A DNA stretch of 64,000 bases. It comes from Actinomycetota bacterium (lineage in GTDB: Bacteria > Actinomycetota > CADDZG01 > WHSQ01). Made by a program: the position numbers and the translations under genes. Location of the stretch: NCBI GenBank assembly GCA_035629935.1, contig DASQLQ010000175.1, positions 3,606-67,605 on the forward strand. The letters run 5' to 3'. The notes under the pieces were generated by a model. It searched no databases and was not told the origin of the DNA. It saw nothing but the letters and a program-made list of their open reading frames with translations. Positions 28,433-40,389 of the stretch are shown here, one piece after another (within the stretch, counting starts at the first letter, position 1; each line of letters starts with the position of its first letter).

Positions 28433-29170
28433 ATGCCGCGGGCGGAGGGGTCAATCGGAAATGCGACCGGTGAGCAGCGCGCGGGCCGTCGTCAGGAACT
28501 CCTCGATGCCGCCCACCGAGTGATCCGGCGGGACGGGCCCACCGCCTCGATGGACGACGTGGCAGCCGAAGCCGGAATCACGAAGCCGATCCTGTATCGA
28601 CACTTCGGCAACAAGGGCGGACTCTACAAAGCGCTCGCCGAGCGCTACGTGTGGGCCCTGCTCACCGAACGACGACGGATCGTCCAAGACCAGACCGACC
28701 CGCACCTCCGTCTTCGAGCGACGATCGATGCCTATCTCGCCTTCGTGGAACAAGATCCTCAGGTCTACCGATTCCTTGCGCAACACGCCTTCTACGAACG
28801 ACCCGAAGCCCAGGCCGCCCTCACCGACTACATCCGGACCCTCGCCGGCGATGTCGCGGCCGAGTTGGACGAAGGGCTCAAGCGTGCCGGCGGGAACCGA
28901 GCGGCCGCCCAACCGTGGGCGTTCGGGATCATCGGTCTTGTGCAAATGGCGACCGACTGGTGGCTCGAGGACCGGTCGATGTCCCGCGCCGAATTCGTGG
29001 ATCACCTAACGAACCTCTTATGGACCGGGATGAGTCGGCCTGAAATTGGAAGAGCACGGGGGATAGGCTCTGCGCCCGAGGAAGCCAAGTCTTTGGAAGC
29101 CAAGTCCGAACGCCGAACGTCTCGACGTTCGGCGGTAGAAAAGAAGGTCGGGGGGCCTTTACGTGGGTGA
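28433..29170 (+). CDS. TetR family transcriptional regulator
   Basis: HTH MDDVAAEAGITKPILYRHFGNKGGLY; divergent from the LLM-SCP2 gene; low-complexity C-terminal tail reads through a REP-like repeat. Confidence 0.85.
   Translation: MPRAEGSIGNATGEQRAGRRQELLDAAHRVIRRDGPTASMDDVAAEAGITKPILYRHFGNKGGLYKALAERYVWALLTERRRIVQDQTDPHLRLRATIDAYLAFVEQDPQVYRFLAQHAFYERPEAQAALTDYIRTLAGDVAAELDEGLKRAGGNRAAAQPWAFGIIGLVQMATDWWLEDRSMSRAEFVDHLTNLLWTGMSRPEIGRARGIGSAPEEAKSLEAKSERRTSRRSAVEKKVGGPLRG
29106..29136. repeat. REP-like structured repeat, copy D (inside the tetR 3' coding tail)
   Basis: CCGAACGCC flank + perfect stem CGCCGAACGT / CTCG / ACGTTCGGCG. Confidence 0.65.
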
Positions 29171-29843
29171 GACGGCTCTGAAAGAGGCTGTCGTCGAAGA
29201 GTCGCCGGGGGAAGCGAAACCGGGACGACGGCTTCGGCTTCCCTGGCCGCGCAAGGAACGCGCTGCCACCGTCGCCATGGAGAAGGGCGACGACACCGTC
29301 GAGGAAGTCGAGCCTTCACCGCTGGCTTACAGGACCTTCTCGCCCAAGCTGGCTCCCGCGGCCACTGCGATCGGCGGAGCACTCGCCATCCTCGGCGGCC
29401 TCGGTGCATGGGTGCGCGCAACCCAGGTGGAAACCGAAGGGCTCCCCGCCGAACAAGTTGCCGTCCAGATGGGCTACAACGATGCCGAGGGTTTGGCGAT
29501 CGCCGTTTTCGGTGGCCTCGCGGTGCTGACAGCTCTTCTCTGGATCCGGAAGCGGCCCTTGTTCAAAGTCGTCCCGGCGTTCGTCGTGAAACTCGTTCCA
29601 CTATTGCTGTCGTTGGCCATCGTCGGCCTCAGCGCGTGGCAACTGCCTCTGGTCGATCAAGCCGCGCAGGAGTTAGCACGGCAAGCGATCGAGGATGCGA
29701 ACTTCACTAATTTCCACGCGGGCCTGGGATGGGGCGCTTGGTGTTTGGTCGTCAGCGCGGTGGTGCTGTTTCTCGGGTGCGCCGTCGGAACCTTGAGAGA
29801 ACTGGACCTTCGGAGGGCAAAGAAAAGGGGGGCCGAGGGATGA
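29163..29843 (+). CDS. hypothetical 4-TM membrane protein
   Basis: 226 aa; GTG start overlapping the tetR stop (start uncertain, ATG 29277 possible); four hydrophobic helices, Trp-rich loops. Confidence 0.5.
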   Translation: MGETALKEAVVEESPGEAKPGRRLRLPWPRKERAATVAMEKGDDTVEEVEPSPLAYRTFSPKLAPAATAIGGALAILGGLGAWVRATQVETEGLPAEQVAVQMGYNDAEGLAIAVFGGLAVLTALLWIRKRPLFKVVPAFVVKLVPLLLSLAIVGLSAWQLPLVDQAAQELARQAIEDANFTNFHAGLGWGAWCLVVSAVVLFLGCAVGTLRELDLRRAKKRGAEG

Positions 29844-31372
29844 GGCTCAAGCAAGTCGCGTTCATTATGGCTATCGCACTTCTGGTGGCCGGCTGCAACG
29901 GTCATGCGGTCTTGGTCGAACGCAAAGCGGGTGAAGTCGGCGCGGGCGGCGTCGCGCCCGGAACACTCGACGAAGCAGGCGGTGGCGGCAACGCTCTGTC
30001 CGAAGGTGGCAGCGGAAGCGTCGACCTCGGCGACCAGGCGGCCGGAGGATCGGGAGGAGCGAGTGGCGTGCCGGGCACGAAGGACGCCGGCGAAGCGAAC
30101 TGCGCGACCAACTCGAACCCGGAGCAAGGATTCACCGACAAGACTCTGAAACTCGGAACGATCGTCCCCGTGTCGGGCGCCTTAAGGCCCCTCGGCGAAC
30201 AAACAGCGCGCGTGATGAAGGTTTCTGTTGAAGCAACGATGAACCGACAACAGTTCATCCCCGGCCCCTACTCGAACCTGAACTGGGGCTGTCCCACCCG
30301 CCCCGGCATCTTCGGACGGAAGGTCTCGCTGAAGATCTTCTCGCTGCAAGCGAACACACCGGAAGAGGCGCTTGCCGGTATGAGGCGTCTGATCGACGTC
30401 GAGAACATCTTCCTAGTCCGTGACTGCTATCTACAGACGAGCCTTATGGGCCCGGCCACCCAATACCAGGGCTCGAAAGGTGTACCGGGGATCTGGTGCC
30501 ACTTCTCCGAGATGCCCTACCCGGAGCTGGCTCCATGGAACTTCGCTCCCGGGGCCGATCCCCAGGTCCTATCTGCCTTGCACACCGGTTTGTTGGTCAA
30601 ACAGTTCGACAAGGAACGTCTCGCGATCCTTGCGGACCCAACCGCGAAAAGCACGACGGTTCGGGCCGCGCTCGCGACCGCCAAGTATCTGAAGCACCCG
30701 ATCCCCTCGGACTGCGTTGTGTACAAGCGCGCCCAGGAAGCGCCGAATGGGATGAGGTCGGAGATCGCCGCGCTCCGCACCTGCTACGGGGGTCAGGCCC
30801 CCGACGCCGTTATCGCTCTCGATGCACTCAACGGTGTATTCGGCGCGCTCGAGGCAAAACAGCAGGGTTGGCGGCCCGCCGACTCCGGCGTGAAGTGGTC
30901 GTGCACCGGAACCTCTTGTTGGATCACGAGCCTTGCGGAGCTGTGCGCAAACGCGTGCGAGGGGATGTTGACCGACTGCGCGACCCTGCCCTGTGTGCCG
31001 TTCGCGAGTCCGAAGAAATATCCGGCCGTCGAAGCTCTCGAGCGAACCAGAACCCAGAACTTCCCGCAGGAGCCGCAAGACATCCTGACGTATGCCCCCG
31101 CGGCGATCACCGGAGGGATCGCGCTATGGCTCACGATGACCGGCCCCGATCTGTCGCGCGAGAAGTTCCGGGAAACGATGGAGAACGACCTCAAGAACTG
31201 GAGTGCAGGCATCGGACCGGTGATCAACATCACCCCTGACGATCACTTCGGAGCCGCAGCGGGTTGGATCATCGAGTTCACCGGACGAAGCAGCTGGTTC
31301 AAAGACCAGAGCGGCGGATTCCTGACACTCGATGATGTTGGGGTCCCCTACTCGATAGCGGTCGGGAACTGA
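29840..31372 (+). CDS. ABC transporter substrate-binding lipoprotein (LivJ/K-like, type 1 periplasmic binding fold)
   Basis: ATGA coupling; lipobox LLVAGC; Gly/Ser-rich linker; LKLGTIVPVSGALRPLGEQ typical of Leu/Ile/Val-binding family. Confidence 0.8.
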   Translation: MRLKQVAFIMAIALLVAGCNGHAVLVERKAGEVGAGGVAPGTLDEAGGGGNALSEGGSGSVDLGDQAAGGSGGASGVPGTKDAGEANCATNSNPEQGFTDKTLKLGTIVPVSGALRPLGEQTARVMKVSVEATMNRQQFIPGPYSNLNWGCPTRPGIFGRKVSLKIFSLQANTPEEALAGMRRLIDVENIFLVRDCYLQTSLMGPATQYQGSKGVPGIWCHFSEMPYPELAPWNFAPGADPQVLSALHTGLLVKQFDKERLAILADPTAKSTTVRAALATAKYLKHPIPSDCVVYKRAQEAPNGMRSEIAALRTCYGGQAPDAVIALDALNGVFGALEAKQQGWRPADSGVKWSCTGTSCWITSLAELCANACEGMLTDCATLPCVPFASPKKYPAVEALERTRTQNFPQEPQDILTYAPAAITGGIALWLTMTGPDLSREKFRETMENDLKNWSAGIGPVINITPDDHFGAAAGWIIEFTGRSSWFKDQSGGFLTLDDVGVPYSIAVGN

Positions 31373-31373
31373 C

Positions 31374-32840
31374 GTGCGAACAGTGAAGCGCTTGACACTG
31401 GTAGGGATCATCGGGCTGCTCATCACCGCGCTGGTAACGCCGCCCGTTGCCGTTGCCCAATCCGACGATCTGAACTACTCGATCAAGGAGGCGCGGGCGT
31501 ATGCGCAGAAGGCCTCCCTCGACAAGAACGTGGTCGAGGCAGTGCCGAAGTGCAACCCCGACGAGGACAAGTACAAGTGCGACGAAGGACAGTGGAACCA
31601 CAAGCCGAACTGCCCGAAAGAGGTCGAGATCGGCCCTTCGGGAAAGGTTCCGACCCCCAAGCCACCCGATGCCGAGGCAGCAAGCGGCGGGGCGGGAGAC
31701 ACGGCCGGCGGAGAACAACCCCCGCCTCAATCGAGTCCCATCCGATACAACCGATTCGTAGCACTCGGCACCTTGTCGCGCATCGCCGGGTTGAATGAAG
31801 CGCGTGGCTTCGCATCGCGCATCTACGTCGATCTGTCCGGTCGTGACGATGGCGAAGCGCATACCGAGAGCGAGGCCGTGGGCACCCAACGCAGATGGGA
31901 GGAACGTTGCTTCCCCGACGGCGCGGCGAACGACGGCGGCAGCGATTACAGCCACATGTTCTCTCGCTCCAACACGCAGCTCTCGACCTACCACTTCACG
32001 GAATGTCACAAGCGGGATTGCTTCGAGCAAGCAACCGGTCCGGGCACGTTCGGGGCGGACGCCGAGAAGGCCACTGCGATCGTCGACCTTCACGAAGAGG
32101 ACGGGGAGGTCGTCGGTAAGCTCTCTTCCGTTGTCGAGGACCTGAACTATGGCGGAGGCGCACTTACGATCGAATCGGTCGAGACATTCATCGACTTCCG
32201 GTCCGACGGCACACCGCAAGGTCTGAAGTGGTCCGTGAGCTCGACGGCGAATGGCGTGAAGCTCGGCGGCCAGCCCATCACCCTGCCGCCCGGAGAGATG
32301 ATCTCCCAACCCGGCATCGCGGTCGGCATGGCAGCCCCTTACGTGAACGCGTCGGAGGACGGCACGAAACTCACGATCGTCGCCGCCGGTCTGACACTCG
32401 GAACCGACCAACAGGCAGTTTTCGTGGGGGGAGCGGAACTGCTCGCCGGATTCGGCGGTGGCCTGGGTGATTTCGAACTGCCTCCACTCGACGAAACCGA
32501 GCCGCCAACCACGACGGATGTGGGCGGCGGAGGCGGTGACGACATCACCTCTCCCGTCGGTGGCATCGGTTCCGTGGGAGGAAGCAGCGGGTTCGACGTT
32601 GCCGCACCTCTGTCGGAGGACGCGACCGCACCCGTTGCCGCAGGAGAACCCGAAGAGATCCTCATCTATGAGATGGCAACGGGCAGGGGCGCCGTTCCCG
32701 CGATCATCGCGTTGGGGATCGTGATGTGGTTCTTGTTATTGAGCCGCTGGCTGCAACGGTTCACCTGGGGTCGCAAGCTGACGCGCTACCAACCGTTCAG
32801 AACTGTCGACTGGGTCTACCGGGCCTTCGTCAAGACATGA
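31374..32840 (+). CDS. hypothetical secreted protein with C-terminal TM anchor (no recognisable family)
   Basis: 488 aa; GTG 1 nt after the SBP stop; signal peptide; Cys-rich N-terminal region; Gly/Asp-rich linker; C-terminal TM helix. Confidence 0.6.
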   Translation: MRTVKRLTLVGIIGLLITALVTPPVAVAQSDDLNYSIKEARAYAQKASLDKNVVEAVPKCNPDEDKYKCDEGQWNHKPNCPKEVEIGPSGKVPTPKPPDAEAASGGAGDTAGGEQPPPQSSPIRYNRFVALGTLSRIAGLNEARGFASRIYVDLSGRDDGEAHTESEAVGTQRRWEERCFPDGAANDGGSDYSHMFSRSNTQLSTYHFTECHKRDCFEQATGPGTFGADAEKATAIVDLHEEDGEVVGKLSSVVEDLNYGGGALTIESVETFIDFRSDGTPQGLKWSVSSTANGVKLGGQPITLPPGEMISQPGIAVGMAAPYVNASEDGTKLTIVAAGLTLGTDQQAVFVGGAELLAGFGGGLGDFELPPLDETEPPTTTDVGGGGGDDITSPVGGIGSVGGSSGFDVAAPLSEDATAPVAAGEPEEILIYEMATGRGAVPAIIALGIVMWFLLLSRWLQRFTWGRKLTRYQPFRTVDWVYRAFVKT

Positions 32841-33766
32841 TCACTCTCGCGGCGCCCGTAACGGAAGTAACAGTCTTCGGACTGTCGTCGGGCGCGGTGT
32901 ACGCGCTGATCGCCCTGGGACTCGTCCTGATCTATCGCACTACGGGTGTGATGAACTTCGCGCAATGGGCGATCGGTTTGATCGCTCTCGTCATGTATGT
33001 CGTCCTCAGTAACCTCGGCCTTCCGGGACCCGTTGCCGCCGCGATCGGGATGGCGGCGGCTGTGGGGGGTGGTGTTCTTTCCTACCGACTCGTCTTCCGT
33101 CGCATCTCCGGCTCCGGCCAGATCATCGTCATCCTGATCTCCATCGGTATAGCTCAGTTCTTCTCGTCACTCGCGGCCTTCGCTCTCGGCTTCGAACAGT
33201 TCACGCGTTTGCAACCATGGCTGCCGGTGGTCGATTGGCACATCGGGTCGGTTGCCGTCCGGTCTTCCGAGATCATCACTGCGGCAACCGCTATCGGCGT
33301 CGCGTTCGGGTTCCTTCTCTGGTTCCGTTTGTCGCGCACCGGCCGGGCGTTGCGAGCCGTGGCTCAGAATCGCGAAGCCGCGATGCTCGCCGGCATCGAT
33401 GCTGTTCGCTACTCGTCGATCGCATGGGGGATCGGATCTGCACTCGGCGCTCTGGCTCTGCTGCTCGTCCTTCCCCACACGGCGGGCGAACAAGGTGGAC
33501 TGATCACGGTCTTCGACGTAACCCCGTTCGGCACGTTGCTGATCCCTGCGTTCGGGGCAGCGTTGGTCGGCGGCCTCGTGCACCTGCCGATGGCACTAGT
33601 CGGAGGTTTCATTTTCGGCCTCTCACGCGAACTCCTCGTTCTCGCCCCACAACCGTGGAACAACTTGAGGTCTGCCGTTGCCGCGATCCTCATCGTCTTC
33701 TTGTTGCTGCTTAGGACGGAACGCTTCTTCGCCTCGAGACAGGAGCTGGAGGCGCTAGGAGGATGA
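32837..33766 (+). CDS. livH: branched-chain amino acid-type ABC permease (LivH-like)
   Basis: ATGA coupling; YALIALGLVLIYRTTGVMNFAQ motif. Confidence 0.85.
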   Translation: MITLAAPVTEVTVFGLSSGAVYALIALGLVLIYRTTGVMNFAQWAIGLIALVMYVVLSNLGLPGPVAAAIGMAAAVGGGVLSYRLVFRRISGSGQIIVILISIGIAQFFSSLAAFALGFEQFTRLQPWLPVVDWHIGSVAVRSSEIITAATAIGVAFGFLLWFRLSRTGRALRAVAQNREAAMLAGIDAVRYSSIAWGIGSALGALALLLVLPHTAGEQGGLITVFDVTPFGTLLIPAFGAALVGGLVHLPMALVGGFIFGLSRELLVLAPQPWNNLRSAVAAILIVFLLLLRTERFFASRQELEALGG

Positions 33767-34881
33767 CGACCGACGTACTTCAGCCGGTTACAACACAACC
33801 GGCAGAGGAAACCTCCTCCGACGAGAAGGCCGAGCGGCCTAGGTGGCGTCCTACACGCAGTCACCTCATCGCTGCAGCTGCTCTGATCGGTCTGGCCGCT
33901 CTCCCGATCCCGTTCGGAGACTTCGGATTCTTCGTCGGTCAGTACGCGTTGATCTACGCGATCATCGGCCTCTCGGTCGTCGTGGTGACCGGTTACGCAG
34001 GGCTCATCTCGCTCATGCCGTACTCCTTCGCCGGCATCGGAGCGATCATCGTCGGCGTCGCTCTGGGCTCGTGGGGTTGGCCCTTCTGGCTCGCACTTCC
34101 GCTGGGTGCGGTCGCAACCGTGCCGATATCCATCCTCGTAGGGATCTCATCGGTCCGTTTGAAGGGCCTGTACCTCGCGATCGCAACGCTTACGTTCTCG
34201 AATGCTCTCGGCGAAACCTTCTTCAAATGGGACGCGGCCACCGGCGGCGCTGCCGGTTGGGTCGTGGAGCGACCGATCGTCGGCCCGATCGATTTCAGCA
34301 GCGACATCAGCTTCTACGTCTTGTGCCTGGTTGCTGTCGGCCTGCTGGTGTGGATGGTTGAAGGACTACGCACCTCGCGCACCGGCCGAGCAATGCTCGC
34401 GGTGAAGGACAACGAACTCGAGGCGCAGGCCCTGGGCATCAACGTCTACAGGACGAAACTGGTGGCGTTCGTGCTGTCCGGTCTGATCGCAGGCTTCGGT
34501 GGGGGGTTGCTGGCCCTGCTGCTCATCACCGTGACTCCTTCGGCGTTCCAGTCCCCGCTGGCCGAAGCGACTTCTATCCTGCTCGTCACGCTCGTTGCGA
34601 TCGGCGGGATGGATCGGGCGATCGGTCCCTTGTTCGGTGCAGTCGCACTCGTCATCCAGCAACAGGTCTTCCAGGGGGCCGAGTTCTTCTTCGCTTTCGT
34701 CGGTATCTACGCAGCCGTGGTGCTGATCGTCTTCATGATGTTCCGTCCCGGCGGGATCGTTCAGGCAGGCAAGCGGTTGGTCGAGGTGACCAAGGCTCGA
34801 CCCGCACTGGGGCTCGCTATCTGGGCCTTCGTACTCATCACCAACGTCGGAGGAGCATGGCTCTTCCTGGCCCTCTCATGA
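33763..34881 (+). CDS. livM: branched-chain amino acid-type ABC permease (LivM-like)
   Basis: 372 aa; ATGA coupling; GYAGLISLMPYSFAGIGA motif. Confidence 0.85.
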   Translation: MTTDVLQPVTTQPAEETSSDEKAERPRWRPTRSHLIAAAALIGLAALPIPFGDFGFFVGQYALIYAIIGLSVVVVTGYAGLISLMPYSFAGIGAIIVGVALGSWGWPFWLALPLGAVATVPISILVGISSVRLKGLYLAIATLTFSNALGETFFKWDAATGGAAGWVVERPIVGPIDFSSDISFYVLCLVAVGLLVWMVEGLRTSRTGRAMLAVKDNELEAQALGINVYRTKLVAFVLSGLIAGFGGGLLALLLITVTPSAFQSPLAEATSILLVTLVAIGGMDRAIGPLFGAVALVIQQQVFQGAEFFFAFVGIYAAVVLIVFMMFRPGGIVQAGKRLVEVTKARPALGLAIWAFVLITNVGGAWLFLALS

Positions 34882-35663
34882 GTCTCCTTCGAACCCGCGA
34901 CATCAGCATCCACTTCGGGGGGATCGCCGCGCTCGATGAGGTCGACCTGTCGATCGAGGCCGGCGAGATCGTCGGGATCCTCGGCCCCAACGGTGCCGGT
35001 AAGTCGACCCTGTTCAACGTCATCTCGGGTTTCCTCAAGCCCGCCCACGGTCGGATCCTCTACATGGAGGAAGAGATAACCCACCTTTTGCCCTACGAGC
35101 GCGTCGGGATCGGCCTCGGGCGAACCTTCCAGCACGTGCGACTGTTCCGTAACCTGACCGTGTACGAGAACCTGCTGGCAGCGCAGCACCGGCACCTCTC
35201 CAGTGGATCGTTCGCGGCGATGTTGCGGCTGCCGGGATGGCGGCGCGACGAGGACCAAGCCCACGCCCGCGTCGAACAGATCCTCGACGTGGTCAACCTG
35301 CGGCCGTGGAGAGACGCCCGGCCGGGCGAACTGTCCTATGGAACAACCCGTTTCCTGGAGCTGGCCGCCGTTCTGTCGATCAAACCGAAGGTGCTGCTGC
35401 TCGACGAGCCGGCTTCCGGTATCCAACAGAAAGAAGTTGAAGCTCTCGGCCCCCTCTTGAAGCAGATCCGGGACGAGACCGGCGTCGCAATCCTGCTGAT
35501 CGAGCACGACATGGGATTGCTTCTCAAGACTTCGGAACGCATCTACGCACTCGACTTCGGCAAGATCATCGCGGAGGGTACCCCCGACGAAGTCACGGCG
35601 AACGATCAGGTGCTCGAGTCTTATCTCGGCCGCACGAGGAGGAAATCCACTGCTACAGCTTGA
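34878..35663 (+). CDS. livG: ABC transporter ATP-binding protein (LivG-like)
   Basis: ATGA coupling; Walker A GPNGAGKST, signature LSYGTTRFLE, Walker B LLLLDEP. Confidence 0.9.
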   Translation: MSLLRTRDISIHFGGIAALDEVDLSIEAGEIVGILGPNGAGKSTLFNVISGFLKPAHGRILYMEEEITHLLPYERVGIGLGRTFQHVRLFRNLTVYENLLAAQHRHLSSGSFAAMLRLPGWRRDEDQAHARVEQILDVVNLRPWRDARPGELSYGTTRFLELAAVLSIKPKVLLLDEPASGIQQKEVEALGPLLKQIRDETGVAILLIEHDMGLLLKTSERIYALDFGKIIAEGTPDEVTANDQVLESYLGRTRRKSTATA

Positions 35664-36375
35664 GCGGATCGACGCGTTCTACGGCCCGATAAAGGTTCTG
35701 TTCGACGTGAACCTCGAAGTGGGGGAAGGCGAGATCGTCGCGCTACTCGGTACCAACGGCGCAGGCAAGACGACGATCCTTCGAGTGATCTCCGGGATCC
35801 TGCGACCGACCGTCGGCGACGCCACCTGGAAAGGTGAGTCGATCATCGGTCAGCGCCCTTCCGAGATCGTCAGGAAGGGGATCGTTCAGATGCCCGGGGG
35901 CCGCGGGGTCTTCCCCGGGATGACCGTGTACGAGAACCTCGAGATCGCAGGCTTCCTGTATGGACGGGATAACGCAAAACGCAAGCACATGATCGACAAG
36001 GTGTTCGAGTTCTTTCCCAAGCTCGTCAAGAAACGCCGTCAGGCGGCCGGGAGCATGTCGGGGGGCGAGCAACAGATGCTCACGTTGGCGAAGTCGTTCA
36101 TCATGGACCCCGACCTTCTGCTCATCGACGAGCTCTCGTTGGGTCTGGCACCCAAGGTAGTGCAAGACCTGCTCGAGATCATCCGCAAGTTCAACTCCGA
36201 AGGGGTAGCAGTCGTGATCGTCGATCAGCACGTCGATCTGGCGCTCGACGTTGCCTCGCGCGCGTACTTCATAGAGCGGGGTGAGATCCGTTTCTCCGGA
36301 CCGGCGGAGGAGCTACGGGGCCGCGACGACCTGCTGCGCTCGGTGTTCCTGAGAGGAGAGATGACGAAGGCATGA
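35650..36375 (+). CDS. livF: ABC transporter ATP-binding protein (LivF-like); probable CTG start
   Basis: Walker A GTNGAGKTT, signature MSGGEQQML, Walker B LLLIDE. First canonical start (GTG 35707) would remove the conserved N-terminal strand/A-loop (RIDAFYGPIKVLFDV); CTG 35650 lies 7 nt after GAGGAGG. Confidence 0.8.
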   Translation: MLQLERIDAFYGPIKVLFDVNLEVGEGEIVALLGTNGAGKTTILRVISGILRPTVGDATWKGESIIGQRPSEIVRKGIVQMPGGRGVFPGMTVYENLEIAGFLYGRDNAKRKHMIDKVFEFFPKLVKKRRQAAGSMSGGEQQMLTLAKSFIMDPDLLLIDELSLGLAPKVVQDLLEIIRKFNSEGVAVVIVDQHVDLALDVASRAYFIERGEIRFSGPAEELRGRDDLLRSVFLRGEMTKA

Positions 36376-36797
36376 GCACGGTCACCGCACCGGTCGGGCT
36401 TGCGACCTCGAACGCAGCCAGACTCAAGTTCCTCAGGTTCGTTCTGTTCGCCGCCGCCGTCGGCCATCTCGTCGTTGGGCTGTCGTTCTGGTTCGCACCG
36501 GAGCTCGCTGTAGAAGAGATCCTGGCGTGGGGGCCGGCCTCGGGATGGACGACCATCCTCGGTTCGTACGATCTTTCGGTCGCGTTCGCTCTATTGCTGG
36601 CGTTCCGCGACCCGCTTCATAACCTTGGGATAGTCCGATTCGTTGGGTTCCTCCTCGTGCTGCATGCCGGAACGCACGCTTACTACACGGCTTTCGGAGA
36701 TTCCCCGCCACGGTTCTGGTTCGTGATCTCGTATCTGGCTGCGACGGGCATCGTTCTGCTGTGGCTCGCATCGGCCGTACAGAAGAGCGAGACCTAG
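36372..36797 (+). CDS. hypothetical 4-TM membrane protein
   Basis: 141 aa; ATGA coupling to livF; four hydrophobic helices. Confidence 0.5.
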   Translation: MSTVTAPVGLATSNAARLKFLRFVLFAAAVGHLVVGLSFWFAPELAVEEILAWGPASGWTTILGSYDLSVAFALLLAFRDPLHNLGIVRFVGFLLVLHAGTHAYYTAFGDSPPRFWFVISYLAATGIVLLWLASAVQKSET

Positions 36798-37829
36798 GTG
36801 CTGGCAGCAAGATTCCATGCGTCCGATCGGGCGCTCAAACTCGAAGACGTTCCGATACCCGAGCCAGGCCCCCTCGACGTCGTCGTGAAGGTCGAGGCGT
36901 GCGGCATCTGCCTCTCCGATGTGCATCTGATCGACGGGTCGTTCCCCGCACTAACCGAGGTCGTCACGATGGGCCACGAGTCGGCCGGGACCGTTCACAA
37001 GACCGGCGAGATGGTTCAGGGTTGGAAGCCCGGTGACCGCGTCGTCTTGATGGCAGGGCGTCCTTGCATGAAGTGCACGCGCTGCACCCAAGGACGCGTA
37101 GATGCATGCCTGCAGCTCGAGCTGATGGGCTTCCACTACGACGGGGCCTGGGCTGAGTACATCTCGGTTCCCTATTTCACGCTGACCCCTGTGCCGGACG
37201 GGATCGACCTCGAGCAAGCTGCGATCCTCGTAGATGCCGTCGCCACGCCTTACGCCGCCATCACGGAGCGAGCGGAGCTCAAGCCCGGCGAGAGCATCGG
37301 TCTGTGGGGCATCGGTGGGCTCGGCACCCACGCGGTTCAGACGGCTCGCTTGATCGGTGCCGGCCTGATCGTGGCCGTCGACCCGTTACCGAGCGCCCGC
37401 GATCGGGCACTCAAACTCGGAGCCGACGTGGCTCTCGATCCACTCGAGGTCGACGTGGTCTCGGAGGTTCAACGAATCACCGGGGGCACGGGTCTCGACG
37501 TGACACTCGATCTAGTCGGATCGAACAGGGTTCTCCAACAGTGTGTGCAGTGTCTTGCAGCCGGGGGCCGCGCGGTGATCGTTGGAATATCGATGGACCA
37601 ACTCGAGCTCGGTCCGACCATCCTCCTGACGGTGCAACGCCAAACGATCATGGGCCATCTCGGGTATTCGAAGAAGAACCTGGACGACTTGGTGAAGCTT
37701 CTACACAGTGGGCGGCTCGACCTAACCGCTTCCATCTCGGACGTGATGCCGTTGGAGGAAGTGCCCGAAGGCGTGCGCCGGCTCAGCGAGAAGGACGGGG
37801 ATCCGGTCCGATTGGTGGTGAAGCCATGA
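36798..37829 (+). CDS. zinc-dependent alcohol dehydrogenase (MDR family)
   Basis: 343 aa; GTG immediately after the upstream TAG; GICLSDVH, GHESAG zinc motifs, structural Zn Cys cluster CMKCTRC, GIGGLG NAD motif. Confidence 0.85.
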   Translation: MLAARFHASDRALKLEDVPIPEPGPLDVVVKVEACGICLSDVHLIDGSFPALTEVVTMGHESAGTVHKTGEMVQGWKPGDRVVLMAGRPCMKCTRCTQGRVDACLQLELMGFHYDGAWAEYISVPYFTLTPVPDGIDLEQAAILVDAVATPYAAITERAELKPGESIGLWGIGGLGTHAVQTARLIGAGLIVAVDPLPSARDRALKLGADVALDPLEVDVVSEVQRITGGTGLDVTLDLVGSNRVLQQCVQCLAAGGRAVIVGISMDQLELGPTILLTVQRQTIMGHLGYSKKNLDDLVKLLHSGRLDLTASISDVMPLEEVPEGVRRLSEKDGDPVRLVVKP

Positions 37830-39130
37830 CTGACGCCGCCGACATGATGACCAATCTGGCCGAGCAGATGATCTCGATCGACCTCGCTCCGGAGGAGATC
37901 GACATCTTCCAACCGGGAGTGGCCGAGATGGCGCTGTTCTCGCCGATGGCGCCGAAGGTCCGGGCGAACCCATGGCCCATCTATCACGCCCTGCGCGAGC
38001 AGGACCCGATCCACTTCAGCCCATTCGGCACCTGCTTGCTCACGCGCTACGAGGATGCCGTTTCGGTCCTGCGCGACAAGCGTTTCTCCGTCGAGCACCG
38101 CAACTACGCCGAGGATCGACAGGGAACGATGATGGGCGACACGTTCGGCCCGGCCCCCAGCGAACGCGATCTATCGAACGTGATGCTGTTCATAGACCCG
38201 CCTCGGCACACCCGTTTGCGAACCTTGGTGAACAAGGCATTCACACCCCGGGTCGTCGAGCGGTTGCGAACGCGTGTGGAAGAGATCGTGGACGAGTTGC
38301 TCGACCGGGCCGAGGGCACCGGCTCGATGGACGTGATCTCGGACTTCGCCTACCCGCTGCCCGTCCAGGTGATCTGCGAGATGCTCGGGGTTCCCGCAGA
38401 GGACCAGGATCGCATCCGCGTGTGGTCCCGGAAGATCGCCCCGATCCTCGATCCGATCGTGACGGCAGAAGCGCAAGCCGGGATCGAGGAAGCCGCCGAC
38501 TATCTCGATACCTACTGGGACGAGTTGATCGAGACGCGGCGGAAAGACCTGCGAGACGATCTGTTGAGCGAGCTGATCCGAGCCGAGGACGAGGGTCACC
38601 GGCTCGACCACGCCGAGCTCCGGTCGACCTGCAACCTCGTTCTGATCGCCGGACACGAGACGACCATGAACCTGATCGGCAACGGCCTCCTCGCGTTGCT
38701 GCGGAACCCGAGCGAGAAAGACAAGCTCCGGGAGCGTCCCGAGCTCGCCCGCAGCGCGGTCGAGGAGCTCCTGCGCTTCGACTCTCCCGTTCACCTAACC
38801 GCGCGCTCGGCAAGCGAGCCTTTGGAAGTCGGCGGTGTCGAGTTCGAACGCGGGCAACTAGCCGTGATCGCGATCGGCGGTGTGAACCGCGATCCATCGC
38901 AGTTCCCCGACCCCGACAGGCTCGACATCGAACGCGACCCCAACCATCACATCGCGTTCTCCGCCGGCGCGCACTTCTGCGTCGGAGCCCAGCTTGCCCG
39001 CCTCGAAGCCCAGATCGCATTCCCGAAGTTGCTGCAGCGGTTCCCGAGCATCGAGCTGGCCGTGGAACAGCCTGAGTACCGCGAGACGATCACGTTACGG
39101 GGCCTGCAGGAACTTCCCGTCGCGTTCTGA
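37826..39130 (+). CDS. cytochrome P450
   Basis: ATGA coupling; EELLR (ExxR) and heme loop FSAGAHFCVGAQLA; ORF-track extension to 37304 lies inside the ADH gene. Confidence 0.9.
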   Translation: MTDAADMMTNLAEQMISIDLAPEEIDIFQPGVAEMALFSPMAPKVRANPWPIYHALREQDPIHFSPFGTCLLTRYEDAVSVLRDKRFSVEHRNYAEDRQGTMMGDTFGPAPSERDLSNVMLFIDPPRHTRLRTLVNKAFTPRVVERLRTRVEEIVDELLDRAEGTGSMDVISDFAYPLPVQVICEMLGVPAEDQDRIRVWSRKIAPILDPIVTAEAQAGIEEAADYLDTYWDELIETRRKDLRDDLLSELIRAEDEGHRLDHAELRSTCNLVLIAGHETTMNLIGNGLLALLRNPSEKDKLRERPELARSAVEELLRFDSPVHLTARSASEPLEVGGVEFERGQLAVIAIGGVNRDPSQFPDPDRLDIERDPNHHIAFSAGAHFCVGAQLARLEAQIAFPKLLQRFPSIELAVEQPEYRETITLRGLQELPVAF

Positions 39131-40389
39131 TGCTCGACTCTCCTCTCCAGATCGGCACCTGCACGGTCCGAAACCGGTTGTATCGCGCGCCGGTGCTGGA
39201 GGGCGCCGGCGATGGTCCCGATGCACCCGGCGTCTACGCCGAAGCATTCGAGGCCAACTCCAAGGCCGGGGTCGGACTGATCATCCAAGGCAACTCGTGC
39301 ACGACGGAGGAAGGTCGCTCCTCGCCGGGGATGACGCTCGTCAATACCCGCGCAGCAACGATGCGTTTGAAGACAGTGACGGAAGCGGTTCACCGTTGGG
39401 GGGGCCGGATCTTCCTGCAGATAGGGGGAGCCGGCATCTATGCGATGGAGGGCTGGCACGCGATCTATGCGGCCCAACGCAAGCAGCCGCTGACTGCCGT
39501 GTCTCCCCCACCGATCCACGTCCGGCCGGCTTTGCGCGGCGTGCGGGTGAAGGTCCTGACGACGGAAGACGTTCGACACCTCATCCAGACGTTCGCCGAC
39601 AGCGCTGCTTGGGCCCGCGAGGCCGGTTACGACGGGGTACAACTTGCGTCATCGAACGCGAAGCTGATCCACCAGTTCCTCTCGCCGTACTACAACAGGC
39701 GCGGTGACGAGTTCGGCGGCAGCCTGCGAAACCGGGCACGTATCCTCGAAGACATAAGCGTTGCCATCTGGCAGAAGGCCGGTGACGACTTCCCACTGAC
39801 GGTGAAGATCCCGATCGGCGAAGACGCGCCACCCCTGGCACCCAGAACCACCTTCGACGAAGGCATCCAGCTCTGCAAGATGGCCGAGGACTTCGGGTAT
39901 CAGGCGATCACGCCTGTTGGCTTATCGGTTTTCCCGCACGCATCGTTGTGTCGGGGAGCCGATCCCAAGGACATCCTCGAGGTGAAGTCGATCAAGAAGC
40001 GATTCGAGCAAGCGCTCGGCGGCTCCAAGCTCAAGCTCGCGGTTTTGCGTTGGGGATATCGCCGTGCGGCGAAGGACTATCCGTTCGAGCCGGTGTGGAA
40101 CCGTCGATACTTCACGGCCGCCAAGACTGCCGTGTCGATACCCGTCTTCGCGGTCGGCGGCATCCGGTCGCTGGACGACTGCCTCTCGGTCCTCGAACCA
40201 AACCAAGCCGACATGGTGGGGATCGGACGGCCCTTCTACGCAGAGCCCGACCTGCCCGCTCGCCTACTCGCCGGGGACCGAACTCCGGCGTTCTGCGAAT
40301 CATCGAACCGGTGCGTGCCGGCTCAGCAACTGGGGATGAAAGCCCGTTGTTACAACTCGAACGTCGCCCGTCGACTGGCGGACCATTAA
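39130..40389 (+). CDS. NADH:flavin oxidoreductase (Old Yellow Enzyme-like TIM barrel)
   Basis: 419 aa; TGATG coupling; GYDGVQLASSNAKLIHQFLSPYYNRRGDEFGGSLRNR motif. Confidence 0.85.
   Translation: MLDSPLQIGTCTVRNRLYRAPVLEGAGDGPDAPGVYAEAFEANSKAGVGLIIQGNSCTTEEGRSSPGMTLVNTRAATMRLKTVTEAVHRWGGRIFLQIGGAGIYAMEGWHAIYAAQRKQPLTAVSPPPIHVRPALRGVRVKVLTTEDVRHLIQTFADSAAWAREAGYDGVQLASSNAKLIHQFLSPYYNRRGDEFGGSLRNRARILEDISVAIWQKAGDDFPLTVKIPIGEDAPPLAPRTTFDEGIQLCKMAEDFGYQAITPVGLSVFPHASLCRGADPKDILEVKSIKKRFEQALGGSKLKLAVLRWGYRRAAKDYPFEPVWNRRYFTAAKTAVSIPVFAVGGIRSLDDCLSVLEPNQADMVGIGRPFYAEPDLPARLLAGDRTPAFCESSNRCVPAQQLGMKARCYNSNVARRLADH

What the first reader, a model, noticed from the sequence alone, without database searches (positions are those of the whole stretch)
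28433..40389. Twelve-gene, about 12-kb gap-free operon joining a Liv-type ABC importer to ADH-P450-OYE redox enzymes
From tetR to the OYE-like reductase, every junction is either an overlap (ATGA, TGATG, an 8-nt overlap at tetR) or a gap of at most 1 nt. The order is tetR, 4-TM protein, SBP lipoprotein, orphan 488-aa secreted protein, livH, livM, livG, livF, 4-TM protein, Zn-ADH, P450, OYE-like flavin reductase.

Such tight coupling of a branched-chain-amino-acid-type importer with a P450/ADH/ene-reductase trio is unusual. It argues for a dedicated uptake-and-oxidation system for a non-amino-acid, probably hydrophobic, substrate. Liv-type SBPs are known to have been recruited for amides, urea and aromatic acids.

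Three of the twelve proteins (29163, 31374, 36372) have no family I can recognise.
Basis: partly seen in the sequence, partly recalled or inferred. Interest (0 to 1): 0.65.

Follow-up and report, generated by a model that had tools for sequence, protein, structure and literature searches.

The report
Extended Liv-type importer with oxidation genes
An uncultured actinobacterium packs a regulator, an unusual seven-part nutrient importer (two parts belong to no known protein family) and three oxidising enzymes into one gap-free operon, most likely to take up and begin breaking down a greasy, non-amino-acid compound.

Summary
The 12-gene, gap-free + strand block (28433-40389) is real. All 11 junctions are overlaps or gaps of at most 1 nt, against 5 of 23 elsewhere in the window. 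One correction: livF has no canonical start nearby. It starts at CTG 35650, where nine of fifteen related loci have ATG, GTG or TTG.

The same 12-gene order recurs in a relative whose orphan protein is about 70% identical (L016). In every other sufficiently complete related locus, all from uncultured Actinomycetota, the invariant unit is seven genes: 4-TM protein, lipoprotein SBP, 488-aa orphan, livH, livM, livG, livF.

The redox genes form a second module that recurs next to this core in shuffled order: Zn-ADH, luciferase-like monooxygenase (LLM), P450 and an FMN protein. Acyl-CoA ligase, acyl-CoA dehydrogenase and MaoC hydratase flank it.

The "OYE" is FadH-like and lacks the classical OYE catalytic residues. 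The TetR is closest to the acyl-CoA sensor FasR.

The orphan has a signal peptide, an all-beta ectodomain, a disordered linker, a TM helix and a conserved cytoplasmic tail. It has no Pfam, PDB or BFVD neighbour and only 65 representatives among 1.84 billion proteins.

Best reading: uptake and first oxidation of a hydrophobic acid or alcohol. The substrate is unproven. This is a new variant of a known kind.

The parts
28381..28432 (.). 52-nt divergent control region between the LLM-SCP2 gene (-) and tetR (+). It contains the palindrome GTTACTgttAGTAAC (28418-28432) and a TANNNT hexamer (28420-28425) 7 nt before the tetR ATG. Likely operator plus promoter of a leaderless transcript.
   Evidence: Sequence read. 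The motif AAGGGTTAC(T/C)GTTAGTAACATG is conserved in L016. There is no SD before 28433. The promoter and operator roles are inferred.
28433..29170 (+). TetR-family regulator, FasR-like.
   Evidence: TetR_N plus TetR_C_32. Best NCBIfam match is FasR, 106.6 bits, far below the 330 cut-off. Best PDB matches are M. tuberculosis FasR 6o6n/6o6p, E 1.5e-21 over the full length. Present in L016/L017 but not upstream of the core in most distant loci.
29163..29843 (+). tm4a: 4-TM membrane protein of no known family and the first gene of the invariant transporter core.
   Evidence: Four hydrophobic segments. No Pfam or NCBIfam hit; the weak Trp_oprn_chp match has E 0.05. Found directly upstream of the SBP in every related locus. 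Conserved motifs are YRTFSxKLAP, GGLGxWVRAT, FHAGxGWGAW and LRELDxRR. The family has 91 clusters, all from Actinomycetota MAGs.
29840..31372 (+). Lipoprotein substrate-binding protein. It is a divergent, Cys-rich Liv-type (Peripla_BP_6) protein with a Gly-rich tether of about 65 residues after the lipobox Cys.
   Evidence: Peripla_BP_6, E 1.3e-11. Lipobox LVAGC, with the Cys at least 90% conserved. AF2 model pLDDT 86.9. Foldseek TM-scores normalised to target length are 0.7-0.8 against LivJ/K-type SBPs that bind Leu, aromatic acids, fatty acid or urea, at 12-18% identity. No PDB sequence hit with the single sequence. The best profile hit is 4n03, E 4e-4, which the PDB entry title quoted calls a fatty-acid ABC transporter SBP.
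31374..32840 (+). Orphan 488-aa type-I membrane protein: signal peptide, all-beta ectodomain (about residues 30-360, six invariant Cys), disordered Gly-rich linker (363-436), TM helix (about 439-460) and a highly conserved cytoplasmic tail.
   Evidence: Alignment A1. AF2 model pLDDT 74.6 overall, and 80-96 (mostly above 90) in ten-residue blocks across residues 231-360. Hydropathy. No Pfam hit in any of 29 members. Foldseek gives nothing below E 0.001 against PDB or BFVD. Only 65 representatives among 1.84 billion proteins. It always lies between the SBP and livH.
32837..33766 (+). LivH-type permease.
   Evidence: BPD_transp_2, E 1.3e-24. LivH/UrtB are the best NCBIfam matches, below cut-off.
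33763..34881 (+). LivM-type permease.
   Evidence: BPD_transp_2, E 4.5e-33. LivM/UrtC are the best NCBIfam matches.
34878..35663 (+). LivG-type ABC ATPase.
   Evidence: ABC_tran plus BCA_ABC_TP_C. LivG, E 4e-79.
35650..36375 (+). LivF-type ABC ATPase with a CTG start codon and a 14-nt overlap with livG.
   Evidence: ABC_tran. LivF, E 2e-58 over residues 2-234 when translated from 35650. AGGAGG lies 7 nt upstream. The orthologous start codon is ATG, GTG or TTG in 9 loci and CTG in L016/L017.
36372..36797 (+). tm4b: small (141 aa) 3-4-TM protein of no known family that travels with the ADH gene.
   Evidence: No Pfam hit; the weak DUF6790 match has E 0.04. Hydropathy. Orthologs lie next to the ADH gene in L003, L015, L016 and L021, in either orientation.
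36798..37829 (+). Zn-dependent medium-chain alcohol dehydrogenase.
   Evidence: ADH_N plus ADH_zinc_N. The sequence shows GHESAG, the structural-zinc motif CMKCTRCTQGRVDAC and GIGGLG. Best PDB matches are archaeal NAD-ADHs, with Rhodococcus sec-ADH lower in the list. Orthologs of 63-70% identity lie near the core in 11 loci.
37826..39130 (+). Cytochrome P450, CYP107-like class I type; no redox partner is encoded nearby.
   Evidence: p450, E 7.6e-37. The sequence shows FSAGAHFCVG (heme Cys), AGHETT and EELLRF. Best PDB matches are PksS, CYP267B1, BioI, CYP164A2 and Vdh. Orthologs of 55-79% identity are in L003, L010, L016, L020, L021 and L022.
39130..40389 (+). Stand-alone FMN TIM-barrel protein (Oxidored_FMN), FadH-like and not a classical OYE.
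   Evidence: Oxidored_FMN, E 4.6e-47. The best PDB match is the N-terminal domain of E. coli 2,4-dienoyl-CoA reductase, E 2e-29. In the alignment the window has A..N..K at the positions where NEM reductase has H, N and Y. There are no FAD or NAD(P)H domains. Three Cys spaced C-x5-C-x11-C lie at the C-terminus. An ortholog of 70-79% identity follows the P450 gene in L016, L021 and L022.
26677..28380 (-). Luciferase-like monooxygenase with a C-terminal SCP2 lipid-binding domain, transcribed divergently from tetR. It belongs to the conserved redox module.
   Evidence: Bac_luciferase plus SCP2. Best PDB matches are the LLM 7bip and the LuxA alkanal monooxygenase. The start is ATG 28380 with SD GGGAGGA. 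ADH-then-LLM adjacency occurs in L003, L006, L015, L021 and L022, and LLM-then-P450 adjacency in L003, L010, L020, L021 and L022.
40976..42562 (-). Long-chain acyl-CoA ligase, convergent with the operon.
   Evidence: AMP-binding. NCBIfam long-chain-fatty-acid--CoA ligase, 424 bits against a 476 cut-off. Orthologs of 61-81% identity lie within 10 kb of the core in L003, L004, L005, L009, L013, L016 and L022; L014 has only a 49%-identical fragment at its contig end.
23942..26239 (+). APH-type kinase (23942-25015) and acyl-CoA dehydrogenase (25025-26239), part of the conserved neighbourhood.
   Evidence: Pfam. The ACAD ortholog is 76-82% identical and lies next to the core in L003, L010, L015, L016, L020, L021, L022 and L023; APH is present in L016 and L023.
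17137..17592 (+). MaoC-type enoyl-CoA hydratase. In distant loci its ortholog sits immediately upstream of the transporter core.
   Evidence: MaoC_dehydratas. Orthologs of 71-77% identity lie directly upstream of tm4a in L021, L022 and L023. L003 has a MaoC-domain gene in the same position, identified by Pfam only.

Best explanation
This is a single operon controlled by a FasR-like TetR repressor. It encodes an atypical Liv/HAAT-family ABC importer together with the first oxidative enzymes for a hydrophobic, non-amino-acid substrate. The substrate is most likely a medium- or long-chain aliphatic acid or alcohol, or a close lipid-like relative.

**Proposed mechanism. Gene content, order and conservation are shown; the steps themselves are inferred.**
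1. The lipoprotein SBP and the membrane-anchored all-beta orphan each sit on a disordered tether of about 65-75 residues. They capture the substrate outside the membrane.
2. LivH/LivM, powered by LivG/LivF, import the substrate. The 4-TM protein and the orphan's conserved TM helix and cytoplasmic tail act as extra subunits or adaptors of the complex.
3. Inside the cell, the P450 hydroxylates the substrate and the Zn-ADH oxidises the alcohol to a carbonyl.
4. The divergently encoded luciferase-like monooxygenase, which carries an SCP2 lipid-binding domain, oxygenates the carbonyl. This would be aldehyde to acid, as LuxA does, or ketone to ester, as type II Baeyer-Villiger enzymes do.
5. The FadH-like FMN protein reduces an activated C=C bond or passes electrons on.
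6. The flanking acyl-CoA ligase, acyl-CoA dehydrogenases and MaoC hydratase carry the product into beta-oxidation.
7. An acyl-CoA or the substrate itself releases the TetR from the palindrome that overlaps the leaderless promoter.
For: **Operon shown**
- All 11 junctions are 1 nt or less, against 5 of 23 elsewhere in the window.
- No internal promoter-like or terminator-like signal exceeds chance.
- L016 has the same tight 12-gene order, and L022 has an equally tight 12-gene run.

**Importer shown**
- Two BPD_transp_2 permeases, LivG-like and LivF-like ATPases and a Peripla_BP_6 SBP with a LivJ-type fold.

**Extra parts**
- tm4a and the orphan occupy fixed positions in the core in all related loci where that part of the contig is complete. 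This includes the most divergent locus, L018, which has no redox neighbours.
- The orphan's cytoplasmic tail is its most conserved segment.

**Link to oxidation**
- Orthologs of the ADH (63-70% identity), LLM (57-80%), P450 (55-79%), FMN protein (70-79%), acyl-CoA ligase (61-81%), ACAD (76-82%) and MaoC (71-77%) recur next to the core in varying order.

**Hydrophobic or acyl substrate inferred from:**
- The TetR is closest to FasR, which senses long-chain acyl-CoA (PMC7382501).
- The LLM carries an SCP2 domain and is closest to an LLM and to the LuxA alkanal monooxygenase.
- The FMN protein is closest to 2,4-dienoyl-CoA reductase.
- The best PDB profile hit of the SBP is an actinobacterial SBP whose PDB entry title calls it a fatty-acid SBP.
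- In R. palustris, most 'BCAA' COG0683 SBPs bind aromatic acids or C8-C14 fatty and dicarboxylic acids, and some lie next to the pimFABCDE beta-oxidation operon (PMC3223731).
Against: - No ligand is known for any member. Every genome concerned is an uncultured MAG.
- The SBP fold matches SBPs for Leu, aromatic acids, urea and fatty acid about equally well.
- The 4n03 profile hit is weak, E 4e-4.
- The core occurs without redox neighbours in L018, L011 and the P0043 contig.
- No ferredoxin or ferredoxin reductase for the P450 lies in any of the clusters.
- There is no flavin reductase of the usual type for the LLM.
- The FMN protein lacks both the classical OYE residues and the FadH electron-input domains, so its role is a guess.
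- A physical association of tm4a and the orphan with LivHMGF is inferred from gene order alone.
Confidence: 0.55

Rival explanations
1. The machinery is the same, but the substrate is an alicyclic or terpenoid compound and the pathway follows camphor-pathway logic. A TetR repressor controls the genes. The P450 hydroxylates the ring, the Zn-ADH makes the ketone, and the luciferase-like enzyme acts as a type II Baeyer-Villiger monooxygenase to open the ring. A CoA ligase then activates the product, and in some relatives an FMO-type BVMO follows. The FMN protein would reduce an enone.
For: - The enzyme set TetR + P450 + Zn-ADH + LLM + acyl-CoA ligase parallels camR, camC, camD, camE and camF of the P. 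putida CAM plasmid. There the diketocamphane monooxygenases are FMN-dependent two-component enzymes that have been grouped with bacterial luciferases as type II BVMOs (PMC6352141).
- FMO/BVMO-like genes lie next to the core in L010 and L020.
- The best PDB hit of the LLM, 7bip, is a luciferase-like monooxygenase; the papers citing the entry deal with rishirilide (polyketide) biosynthesis and poly(acrylic acid) degradation.
- The PDB hits of the ADH include secondary-alcohol dehydrogenases.
Against: - No putidaredoxin or reductase equivalents are present.
- The FasR-like regulator, the SCP2 domain, the long-chain acyl-CoA ligase model and the MaoC/ACAD neighbours point more to linear acyl chains.
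- Orthology to the cam genes was not tested.
Confidence: 0.2
2. The family imports long-chain alkyl sulfate esters or a related anionic amphiphile. A cytoplasmic alkylsulfatase-like metallo-beta-lactamase releases the alcohol. The ADH and LLM then oxidise it to the fatty acid for beta-oxidation. The window lineage has lost the hydrolase and now uses the system for the free alcohol or acid.
For: - A protein of about 410 aa with MBL and Alkyl_sulf_dimr domains, and with no signal peptide in the one sequence inspected (L022), directly follows livF in L003, L008, L013, L015, L021 and L022.
- Its best PDB hits are the sec-alkylsulfatase Pisa1 and SdsA1, E 1e-16 to 1e-13.
- Where this gene is present (L003, L015, L021, L022) the LLM lacks SCP2. 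In the window SCP2 is fused to the LLM.
Against: - The gene is absent from the window and is not seen in the held part of L016.
- The PDB similarity is partial and weak.
- The P450 and the FMN protein have no role in this scheme.
- No sulfate or sulfite handling genes were seen.
Confidence: 0.1
3. The transporter is an ordinary amino-acid (Leu/Ile/Val or similar) importer. It merely shares a transcript with lipid-oxidation genes in a compact genome, and the two unknown membrane proteins are unrelated passengers.
For: - All five canonical Liv components are present and score best against Liv/Urt models.
- Foldseek top hits include Leu-binding proteins.
- The core occurs without redox genes in some loci.
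Against: - Every Liv NCBIfam score is far below its equivalog cut-off.
- The SBP is 12-18% identical to LivJ-type SBPs and the single sequence has no PDB hit.
- No amino-acid catabolic genes are nearby.
- The two 'passengers' hold fixed positions in every locus, down to 28% identity for the orphan.
- Redox and beta-oxidation orthologs recur next to the core in 17 of 21 loci.
Confidence: 0.1

Closest known systems
LivJ/K-HMGF, the HAAT family of ABC importers (TC 3.A.1.4)
   Same: - Two BPD_transp_2 permeases.
- A LivG-type ATPase with the BCA_ABC_TP_C tail and a LivF-type ATPase.
- A cluster-B (Peripla_BP_6) binding protein.
- The same livH-M-G-F order.
   Different: - Two extra, strictly conserved genes sit inside the unit: a 4-TM protein before the SBP, and a 488-aa anchored beta-rich protein between the SBP and livH.
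- The SBP is a Cys-rich lipoprotein on a long tether and is only 12-18% identical to solved relatives.
- All NCBIfam scores are far below the Liv/Urt equivalog cut-offs.
- The unit is co-transcribed with oxidoreductases.
R. palustris Liv-type transporters RPA3723-3725 next to pimFABCDE, and the aromatic-acid Liv-type SBPs (PMC3223731)
   Same: A 'BCAA-type' ABC system recruited for hydrophobic acids (C8-C14 fatty and dicarboxylic acids, aromatic acids) and placed beside an acyl-CoA ligase and beta-oxidation genes.
   Different: - A different phylum (monoderm Actinomycetota MAGs).
- The accessory proteins are present here.
- The P450, ADH, LLM and FMN-protein genes lie in the same operon.
- No ligand data exist for this system.
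Camphor (CAM) catabolic genes camR-camDCAB, camE and camF of Pseudomonas putida (PMC6352141)
   Same: A TetR-family repressor divergent from an operon that holds a P450 and a Zn-ADH, with a luciferase-like FMN monooxygenase and a CoA ligase nearby. The logic is hydroxylate, oxidise, oxygenate, then make the CoA ester.
   Different: - No putidaredoxin or reductase genes are present.
- An ABC importer is in the operon here; none is described among the CAM genes in the parts of PMC6352141 read.
- The LLM carries an SCP2 domain.
- Homology to the cam genes beyond the family level was not tested.
M. tuberculosis FasR (PDB 6o6n/6o6o/6o6p; PMC7382501)
   Same: Best full-length structural-sequence match of the TetR (E 1.5e-21). 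It shares the TetR_N plus TetR_C_32-type architecture, and FasR senses long-chain acyl-CoA.
   Different: - The NCBIfam score is 106.6 bits against a cut-off of 330, so it is not an equivalog.
- FasR activates fas. Here the gene heads a catabolic or uptake operon and probably represses it.
E. coli 2,4-dienoyl-CoA reductase FadH (1ps9) and classical Old Yellow Enzymes
   Same: An FMN-binding TIM barrel of the Oxidored_FMN family. FadH is the best PDB hit (2e-29).
   Different: - The protein is only 419 aa, with no FAD or NADPH domains.
- It has three Cys, rather than the four I recall for the FadH Fe-S cluster motif.
- The positions where NEM reductase has H, N and Y read A, N and K.

Membership tests
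HAAT / Liv-type ABC importer | Two BPD_transp_2 (LivH/LivM) permeases | tested here: met
   PF02653, E 1.3e-24 and 4.5e-33.
HAAT / Liv-type ABC importer | LivG-type and LivF-type ATPases | tested here: met
   ABC_tran plus BCA_ABC_TP_C on livG. LivG E 4e-79 and LivF E 2e-58, both below the equivalog cut-offs.
HAAT / Liv-type ABC importer | Cluster-B (Peripla_BP_6, LivJ-fold) binding protein | tested here: met
   PF13458, E 1.3e-11. Foldseek target-normalised TM-scores of 0.7-0.8 against LivJ/K-type SBPs.
HAAT / Liv-type ABC importer | Canonical five-component composition | tested here: not met
   Seven conserved genes. tm4a and the 488-aa orphan are present in every related locus where that part of the contig is complete.
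HAAT / Liv-type ABC importer | Branched-chain amino-acid (or urea/amide) substrate | not testable with these tools
   Fold neighbours bind Leu, aromatic acids, fatty acid or urea. Pocket residues could not be mapped.
FasR-type TetR regulator | TetR_N HTH plus FasR-like C-terminal domain | tested here: met
   TetR_N plus TetR_C_32. FasR structures are the best PDB hits, E 1.5e-21.
FasR-type TetR regulator | Score above the NCBIfam FasR equivalog cut-off | tested here: not met
   106.6 bits against a cut-off of 330.
FasR-type TetR regulator | Long-chain acyl-CoA as effector | not testable with these tools
   Needs binding assays.
Cytochrome P450 (class I bacterial) | Heme-thiolate motif FxxGxHxCxG, ExxR, and the I-helix AGxxTT | tested here: met
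   FSAGAHFCVG, EELLRF and AGHETT in the translation. PF00067, E 7.6e-37.
Cytochrome P450 (class I bacterial) | Ferredoxin and ferredoxin reductase partner encoded alongside | tested here: not met
   None among the scanned window genes or beside the P450 in related loci.
Classical Old Yellow Enzyme ene-reductase | Oxidored_FMN TIM barrel | tested here: met
   PF00724, E 4.6e-47.
Classical Old Yellow Enzyme ene-reductase | His/His(Asn) substrate-binding pair and Tyr proton donor | tested here: not met
   The alignment to NEM reductase and SYE1 shows A..N..K in place of H..N..Y.
FadH / TMADH-type Fe-S flavoproteins | Four-Cys 4Fe-4S motif after the barrel | tested here: inconclusive
   Only three Cys (C-x5-C-x11-C) in the C-terminal 40 residues. 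The FadH motif is recalled from memory and was not aligned here.
FadH / TMADH-type Fe-S flavoproteins | C-terminal FAD and NAD(P)H-binding domains | tested here: not met
   The protein ends at 419 aa and has no Pyr_redox-type hits.
Zn-dependent medium-chain ADH | ADH_N plus ADH_zinc_N domains with catalytic and structural zinc ligands | tested here: met
   Pfam. GHESAG and CMKCTRCTQGRVDAC in the sequence.
Camphor-type (cam) pathway | TetR + P450 + Zn-ADH + luciferase-like monooxygenase + CoA ligase in one neighbourhood | tested here: met
   compared with PMC6352141. This is a resemblance in composition only.
Camphor-type (cam) pathway | Orthology to the cam genes and a terpenoid substrate | not tested
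   No cam sequences were compared.
Mce-type lipid importer | MCE-domain proteins and YrbE permeases | tested here: not met
   No such Pfam hits on any of the 12 proteins.
Trp_oprn_chp (PF09534), as a candidate family for tm4a | Score above the Pfam gathering threshold | tested here: not met
   13.9 bits against 29.6, E 0.05.

The most novel reading that the evidence does not exclude
The seven-gene core is a new subclass of ABC importer for monoderm Actinomycetota. In it, a Liv-type engine is joined by two added components. One is a membrane-tethered all-beta protein whose predicted fold has no neighbour in the libraries searched, acting as a lipid-capture or hand-over subunit that reaches into the cell wall on a flexible linker. 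The other is a 4-TM adaptor. Functionally this would resemble Mce or Lol/Lpt-style lipid hand-off, built on an unrelated scaffold and feeding a cam-like P450/ADH/luciferase-like oxidation line.
Probability: 0.2. Interest if true: 0.75.

Novelty: new variant of a known kind. Interest (0 to 1): 0.5.

Why it matters
[quoted passage not shown] This system adds a well-conserved case in uncultured soil and sediment Actinomycetota where the context points to a lipid-like substrate.

It also shows the canonical five-part machine extended by two conserved membrane proteins with no known family and, for the larger one, no structural neighbour in the libraries searched. If these are true subunits, they would reveal how a monoderm cell hands a poorly soluble substrate to an SBP-dependent importer.

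The operon supplies a compact, testable set of parts for assigning function to three orphan families and to an atypical FMN protein that is translationally coupled to a P450:
- the SBP;
- the TetR and its palindrome;
- the P450, ADH and LLM.

Tried and rejected
**Family and fold searches**
- Pfam and NCBIfam found nothing significant for the three unknown proteins, even at E up to 10 or across all 29 orphan homologs.
- Foldseek of the orphan model found no hit below E 0.001 against PDB or BFVD, and all TM-scores were below 0.25. The porin, FadL, LptD and lipovitellin hits are noise-level.

**SBP ligand**
- The single SBP sequence gave no PDB hit.
- The ligands of its fold neighbours are too mixed to assign a substrate.

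**Signals in and around the block**
- The promoter and terminator scan was at or below chance.
- No hairpin follows the last gene (z 0.27).
- The repeat scan showed only the paralogous Walker-A regions of livG and livF.
- Rfam found nothing in the block.

**Searches for specific partners**
- I looked for an alkylsulfatase-like gene in the window and found none.
- I looked for a ferredoxin next to the P450 in related loci. The 69-aa ORF in L020 is a small membrane protein, not a ferredoxin.

**Revised and rejected ideas**
- My first impression that the FMN protein was specific to the window's clade was wrong. It came from 14 GTDB loci that were truncated or lacked the gene, and L021 and L022 overturned it.
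- tetR is not conserved upstream of the core in distant loci.
- The small secreted ORF 40523-40963 has no homolog in any related locus, so I excluded it from the system.
- I rejected ATG 28379 as the tetR start and ATG 28434 as the LLM start.

Full report
**1. The observation**

The window has about 62% G+C throughout, with no compositional break at the block.

| Gene | Coordinates | Note |
|---|---|---|
| tetR | 28433-29170 | |
| 4-TM protein (tm4a) | 29163-29843 | |
| Peripla_BP_6 lipoprotein (SBP) | 29840-31372 | |
| 488-aa orphan | 31374-32840 | |
| livH | 32837-33766 | |
| livM | 33763-34881 | |
| livG | 34878-35663 | |
| livF | 35650-36375 | CTG start |
| 141-aa membrane protein (tm4b) | 36372-36797 | |
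| Zn-ADH | 36798-37829 | |
| P450 | 37826-39130 | |
| Oxidored_FMN protein | 39130-40389 | |

Ten junctions are as described: -8, -4, +1, -4, -4, -4, -4, 0, -4 and -1 nt.

The livG/livF junction needed correction. No ATG, GTG or TTG lies near the livG stop. The first canonical start, GTG 35707, would remove about 19 N-terminal residues, including the first residues of the ABC domain. That is the start chosen in the public gene calls for L001 and L016. The frame is open from 35500 and reads LLQLERIDAFYG, a typical LivF N-terminus. CTG 35650 lies 7 nt after AGGAGG. At the homologous codon, nine related loci have ATG, GTG or TTG behind the same Shine-Dalgarno sequence, and L016/L017 share the CTG. 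So livF starts at CTG 35650 and overlaps livG by 14 nt.

In crude gene calls for the rest of the window, only 5 of 23 same-strand junctions are 1 nt or less. Eleven in a row is therefore not chance. Simple promoter and terminator scans find nothing above shuffled expectation in 26000-43000: 0 promoter-like sites against 2.5 expected, and 12 terminator-like sites against 12.1 expected. There is no significant hairpin after the last gene.

**2. The 5' end**

The divergent luciferase-like gene starts at ATG 28380, behind GGGAGGA, and not at 28434. This leaves 52 nt before the tetR ATG at 28433. That ATG has no Shine-Dalgarno sequence. It is preceded by TACTGT (a TANNNT hexamer) plus 7 nt, and by the palindrome GTTACTgttAGTAAC. 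The whole motif is conserved in L016, although the proteins are only about 62-80% identical. I infer a leaderless transcript whose -10 region overlaps the TetR operator. This is inference, not shown.

**3. Synteny**

*Distribution.* The orphan protein has 76 homolog clusters, all from uncultured Actinomycetota MAGs or metagenomes and all annotated as hypothetical.

*Loci examined.* A scan of GTDB representative genomes with its alignment returned 14 loci. Look-ups of individual homologs gave further contigs.

*The core.* tblastn with the window's proteins, plus an HMM check for the most divergent case, shows one invariant unit. It is present in every locus complete enough to judge, in the same order and strand: tm4a, SBP, orphan, livH, livM, livG, livF. 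Even L018 keeps all seven genes, although its orphan is only 28% identical and it has no redox neighbours.

*The 12-gene order.* The full order tetR to FMN protein, with the same flanks, recurs in L016/L017, where the orphan is about 70% identical. The flanks are PTE, APH, ACAD, a divergent LLM-SCP2 and a convergent acyl-CoA ligase.

*More distant loci.* The redox genes are still there but rearranged:
- L022 reads ACAD(-), MaoC, core, MBL/alkylsulfatase-like, ADH, LLM, P450, FMN protein, ligase(-). It is again tightly packed.
- L021 is the same, with tm4b inverted.
- L003 and L015 are similar.
- L010 and L020 place P450-LLM-ACAD on the opposite strand upstream.
- L005, L009 and L023 keep ADH with or without the ligase.

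*Tally.* Of 21 informative loci, 17 have at least one ortholog within 10 kb, at these identities to the window's copy:

| Gene | Identity |
|---|---|
| ADH | 63-70% |
| LLM | 57-80% |
| P450 | 55-79% |
| FMN protein | 70-79% |
| Acyl-CoA ligase | 61-81% |
| ACAD | 76-82% |
| MaoC | 71-77% |

Recurrent sub-adjacencies are ADH then LLM, LLM then P450, and P450 then FMN protein. The coupling of importer and redox genes is conserved. The conserved architecture is a 7-gene core plus a movable module, and tetR is a clade-specific addition.

**4. The parts**

*SBP.*
- It has the lipobox LVAGC, with the Cys at least 90% conserved. A Gly-rich tether of about 65 residues follows it, and the protein has many invariant Cys.
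- The AF2 model (pLDDT 86.9) is a LivJ-type two-lobe fold. Target-normalised TM-scores are 0.7-0.8 and identity is 12-18% to SBPs that bind Leu, aromatic acids, urea or fatty acid.
- The single sequence finds nothing in the PDB.
- The family profile's best hit is 4n03 at E 4e-4, which is weak. The PDB entry title quoted calls it a fatty-acid ABC transporter SBP from Thermomonospora curvata.

*Orphan.*
- Its layout is a signal peptide, an all-beta ectodomain, a disordered Gly-rich linker (363-436), a TM helix, and a cytoplasmic tail that is the best-conserved segment, SRWLQRFxWGRxLxRxQPFRxIDWxYRAFVKT.
- The ectodomain has six invariant Cys and invariant EERC, H194, H207, D278 and D329.
- It has no Pfam hit in any of 29 members. 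It has no Foldseek neighbour below E 0.001 in PDB or BFVD.
- A profile search of 1.84 billion representatives finds only 65 proteins.

*tm4a.* It has four TM segments and conserved motifs. Its family has 91 clusters, with no Pfam family and the same taxonomic range.

*TetR.* The best matches are FasR, both in NCBIfam (106.6 bits, cut-off 330) and in the PDB (6o6n/6o6p, E 1.5e-21). FasR senses long-chain acyl-CoA (PMC7382501).

*P450.* It has an intact heme motif and is CYP107-like. Its best PDB matches are PksS, CYP267B1, BioI, CYP164A2 and Vdh. No ferredoxin or reductase lies nearby in the window or in related loci.

*ADH.* Both zinc sites are present.

*FMN protein.*
- It is closest to the N-terminal barrel of 2,4-dienoyl-CoA reductase.
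- The aligned positions where NEM reductase has H, N and Y read A, N and K.
- It lacks the FAD and NADPH domains and keeps three C-terminal Cys.
- 'OYE-like flavin reductase' is therefore too specific a label.

*LLM.* It carries a C-terminal SCP2 domain. It is closest to the LLM 7bip and to the LuxA alkanal monooxygenase.

*Flanks.* These include a long-chain acyl-CoA ligase, three ACADs, MaoC, an SDR, a PTE-family protein and APH.

**5. Interpretation**

*What is shown.* This is an operon-like, conserved fusion of an extended Liv-type importer with an ADH/LLM/P450/FMN-protein module, inside a beta-oxidation neighbourhood.

*What I infer.* It imports a hydrophobic, non-amino-acid acid or alcohol and oxidises it by this route:
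1. The P450 hydroxylates it.
2. The ADH oxidises the alcohol to a carbonyl.
3. The LLM oxygenates the carbonyl.
4. The product is ligated to CoA.
5. It then enters beta-oxidation.

An acyl-CoA-type effector would act on the TetR.

*Precedent and analogue.*
- The best precedent for the recruitment is R. palustris. There most 'BCAA' COG0683 SBPs bind aromatic acids or C8-C14 fatty and dicarboxylic acids, and RPA3723 and RPA3724 sit beside pimFABCDE (PMC3223731).
- The closest pathway analogue for the enzyme set is the camphor system: camR, P450cam, the CamD ADH, the luciferase-like diketocamphane monooxygenases and a CoA ligase (PMC6352141). This keeps an alicyclic or terpenoid substrate open as a rival.

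*Third clue.* In six distant loci a cytoplasmic alkylsulfatase-like MBL protein follows livF, which suggests alkyl esters as substrates in those lineages. The window lacks that gene.

*An ordinary amino-acid role is unlikely.*
- The SBP is too divergent.
- Two extra components are fixed in the unit.
- The neighbours are consistently lipid-related.

*Role of the two extra membrane proteins.* This is inferred from fixed gene order, overlapping stop and start codons, and the conserved cytoplasmic tail. They could be subunits or adaptors. The ectodomain could instead be a tethered enzyme or a metal-binding module.

**6. Novelty and score**

Liv-type systems recruited for hydrophobic acids are known, and so are P450/ADH/LLM catabolic sets under TetR control.

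What is new is the seven-part importer with two orphan families, one of them without any structural neighbour in the libraries searched. Also new is its conserved coupling to the redox module in a clade known only from metagenomes.

I rate it a new variant of a known kind, with interest 0.5. It is solid and testable, but the substrate and the role of the orphan proteins remain unproven.

Noticed in passing
window 35637-35663: livF uses a CTG start codon at 35650, behind a conserved AGGAGG. Orthologs have ATG, GTG or TTG at the same codon. The public gene calls for L001 and L016 instead start at GTG 35707 and shorten the protein by about 19 residues.
   Followed up: yes
window 55885-55959 (+), with genes 55976-56458 and 56637-57173: A c-di-GMP-I riboswitch (RF01051, 57.4 bits against a gathering score of 35) lies directly upstream of a secreted CAP-domain (cysteine-rich secretory protein family) gene. 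A second CAP paralog follows.
   Followed up: partly
window 28418-28433; L016 about 7052-7069: The conserved motif GGGTTAC(T/C)GTTAGTAAC runs straight into the tetR ATG. It holds a palindrome with 6-bp arms and a TANNNT hexamer 7 nt before the ATG, and there is no Shine-Dalgarno sequence. This suggests a leaderless mRNA with an operator overlapping the promoter.
   Followed up: partly
window 39130-40389: In the Oxidored_FMN protein, the positions where NEM reductase has H, N and Y read A, N and K. The protein has no FAD or NADPH domains and keeps a C-x5-C-x11-C triplet at its C-terminus. It is translationally coupled (TGATG) to the P450 gene here and in L016, L021 and L022.
   Followed up: partly
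L003 15028-16266, L015 9185-10414, L008 14880-16139, L013 14930-16174, L021 15054-16298, L022 13184-14413: A protein of about 410 aa with metallo-beta-lactamase and alkylsulfatase-dimerisation domains directly follows livF in six distant loci. The one sequence inspected (L022) has no signal peptide, and none of them has the SCP2 domain of true alkylsulfatases. In four of these loci (L003, L015, L021, L022) the LLM lacks SCP2, whereas in the window, which lacks this gene, SCP2 is fused to the LLM.
   Followed up: partly
window 17137-28380 compared with L021-L023: The MaoC ortholog sits immediately upstream of the transporter core in L021, L022 and L023. L003 has a MaoC-domain gene in the same position, identified by Pfam only. 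In the window about 11 kb of further lipid-metabolism genes lie in between: an MFS transporter, an alpha/beta hydrolase, two ACADs, an SDR, a PTE-family protein, APH, another ACAD, a GNAT and the LLM.
   Followed up: partly
window 42962-45706: A 417-aa protein with only a weak sigma-70 region 2 match lies on the minus strand. It is divergent from, and overlaps the start of, a 504-aa protein with 15 RTX calcium-binding repeat stretches.
   Followed up: no
window 40523-40963: A small secreted 146-aa ORF with a good Shine-Dalgarno sequence lies 133 nt after the operon. It has no homolog in any related locus. L016 has a different 143-aa ORF at the same position.
   Followed up: partly
L020 2273-2482 (-): A 69-aa ORF overlaps the end of the P450 gene by 4 nt. 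Its translation has two hydrophobic stretches (a probable 2-TM protein) and none of the Cys a ferredoxin needs, although its size and position might suggest one.
   Followed up: yes
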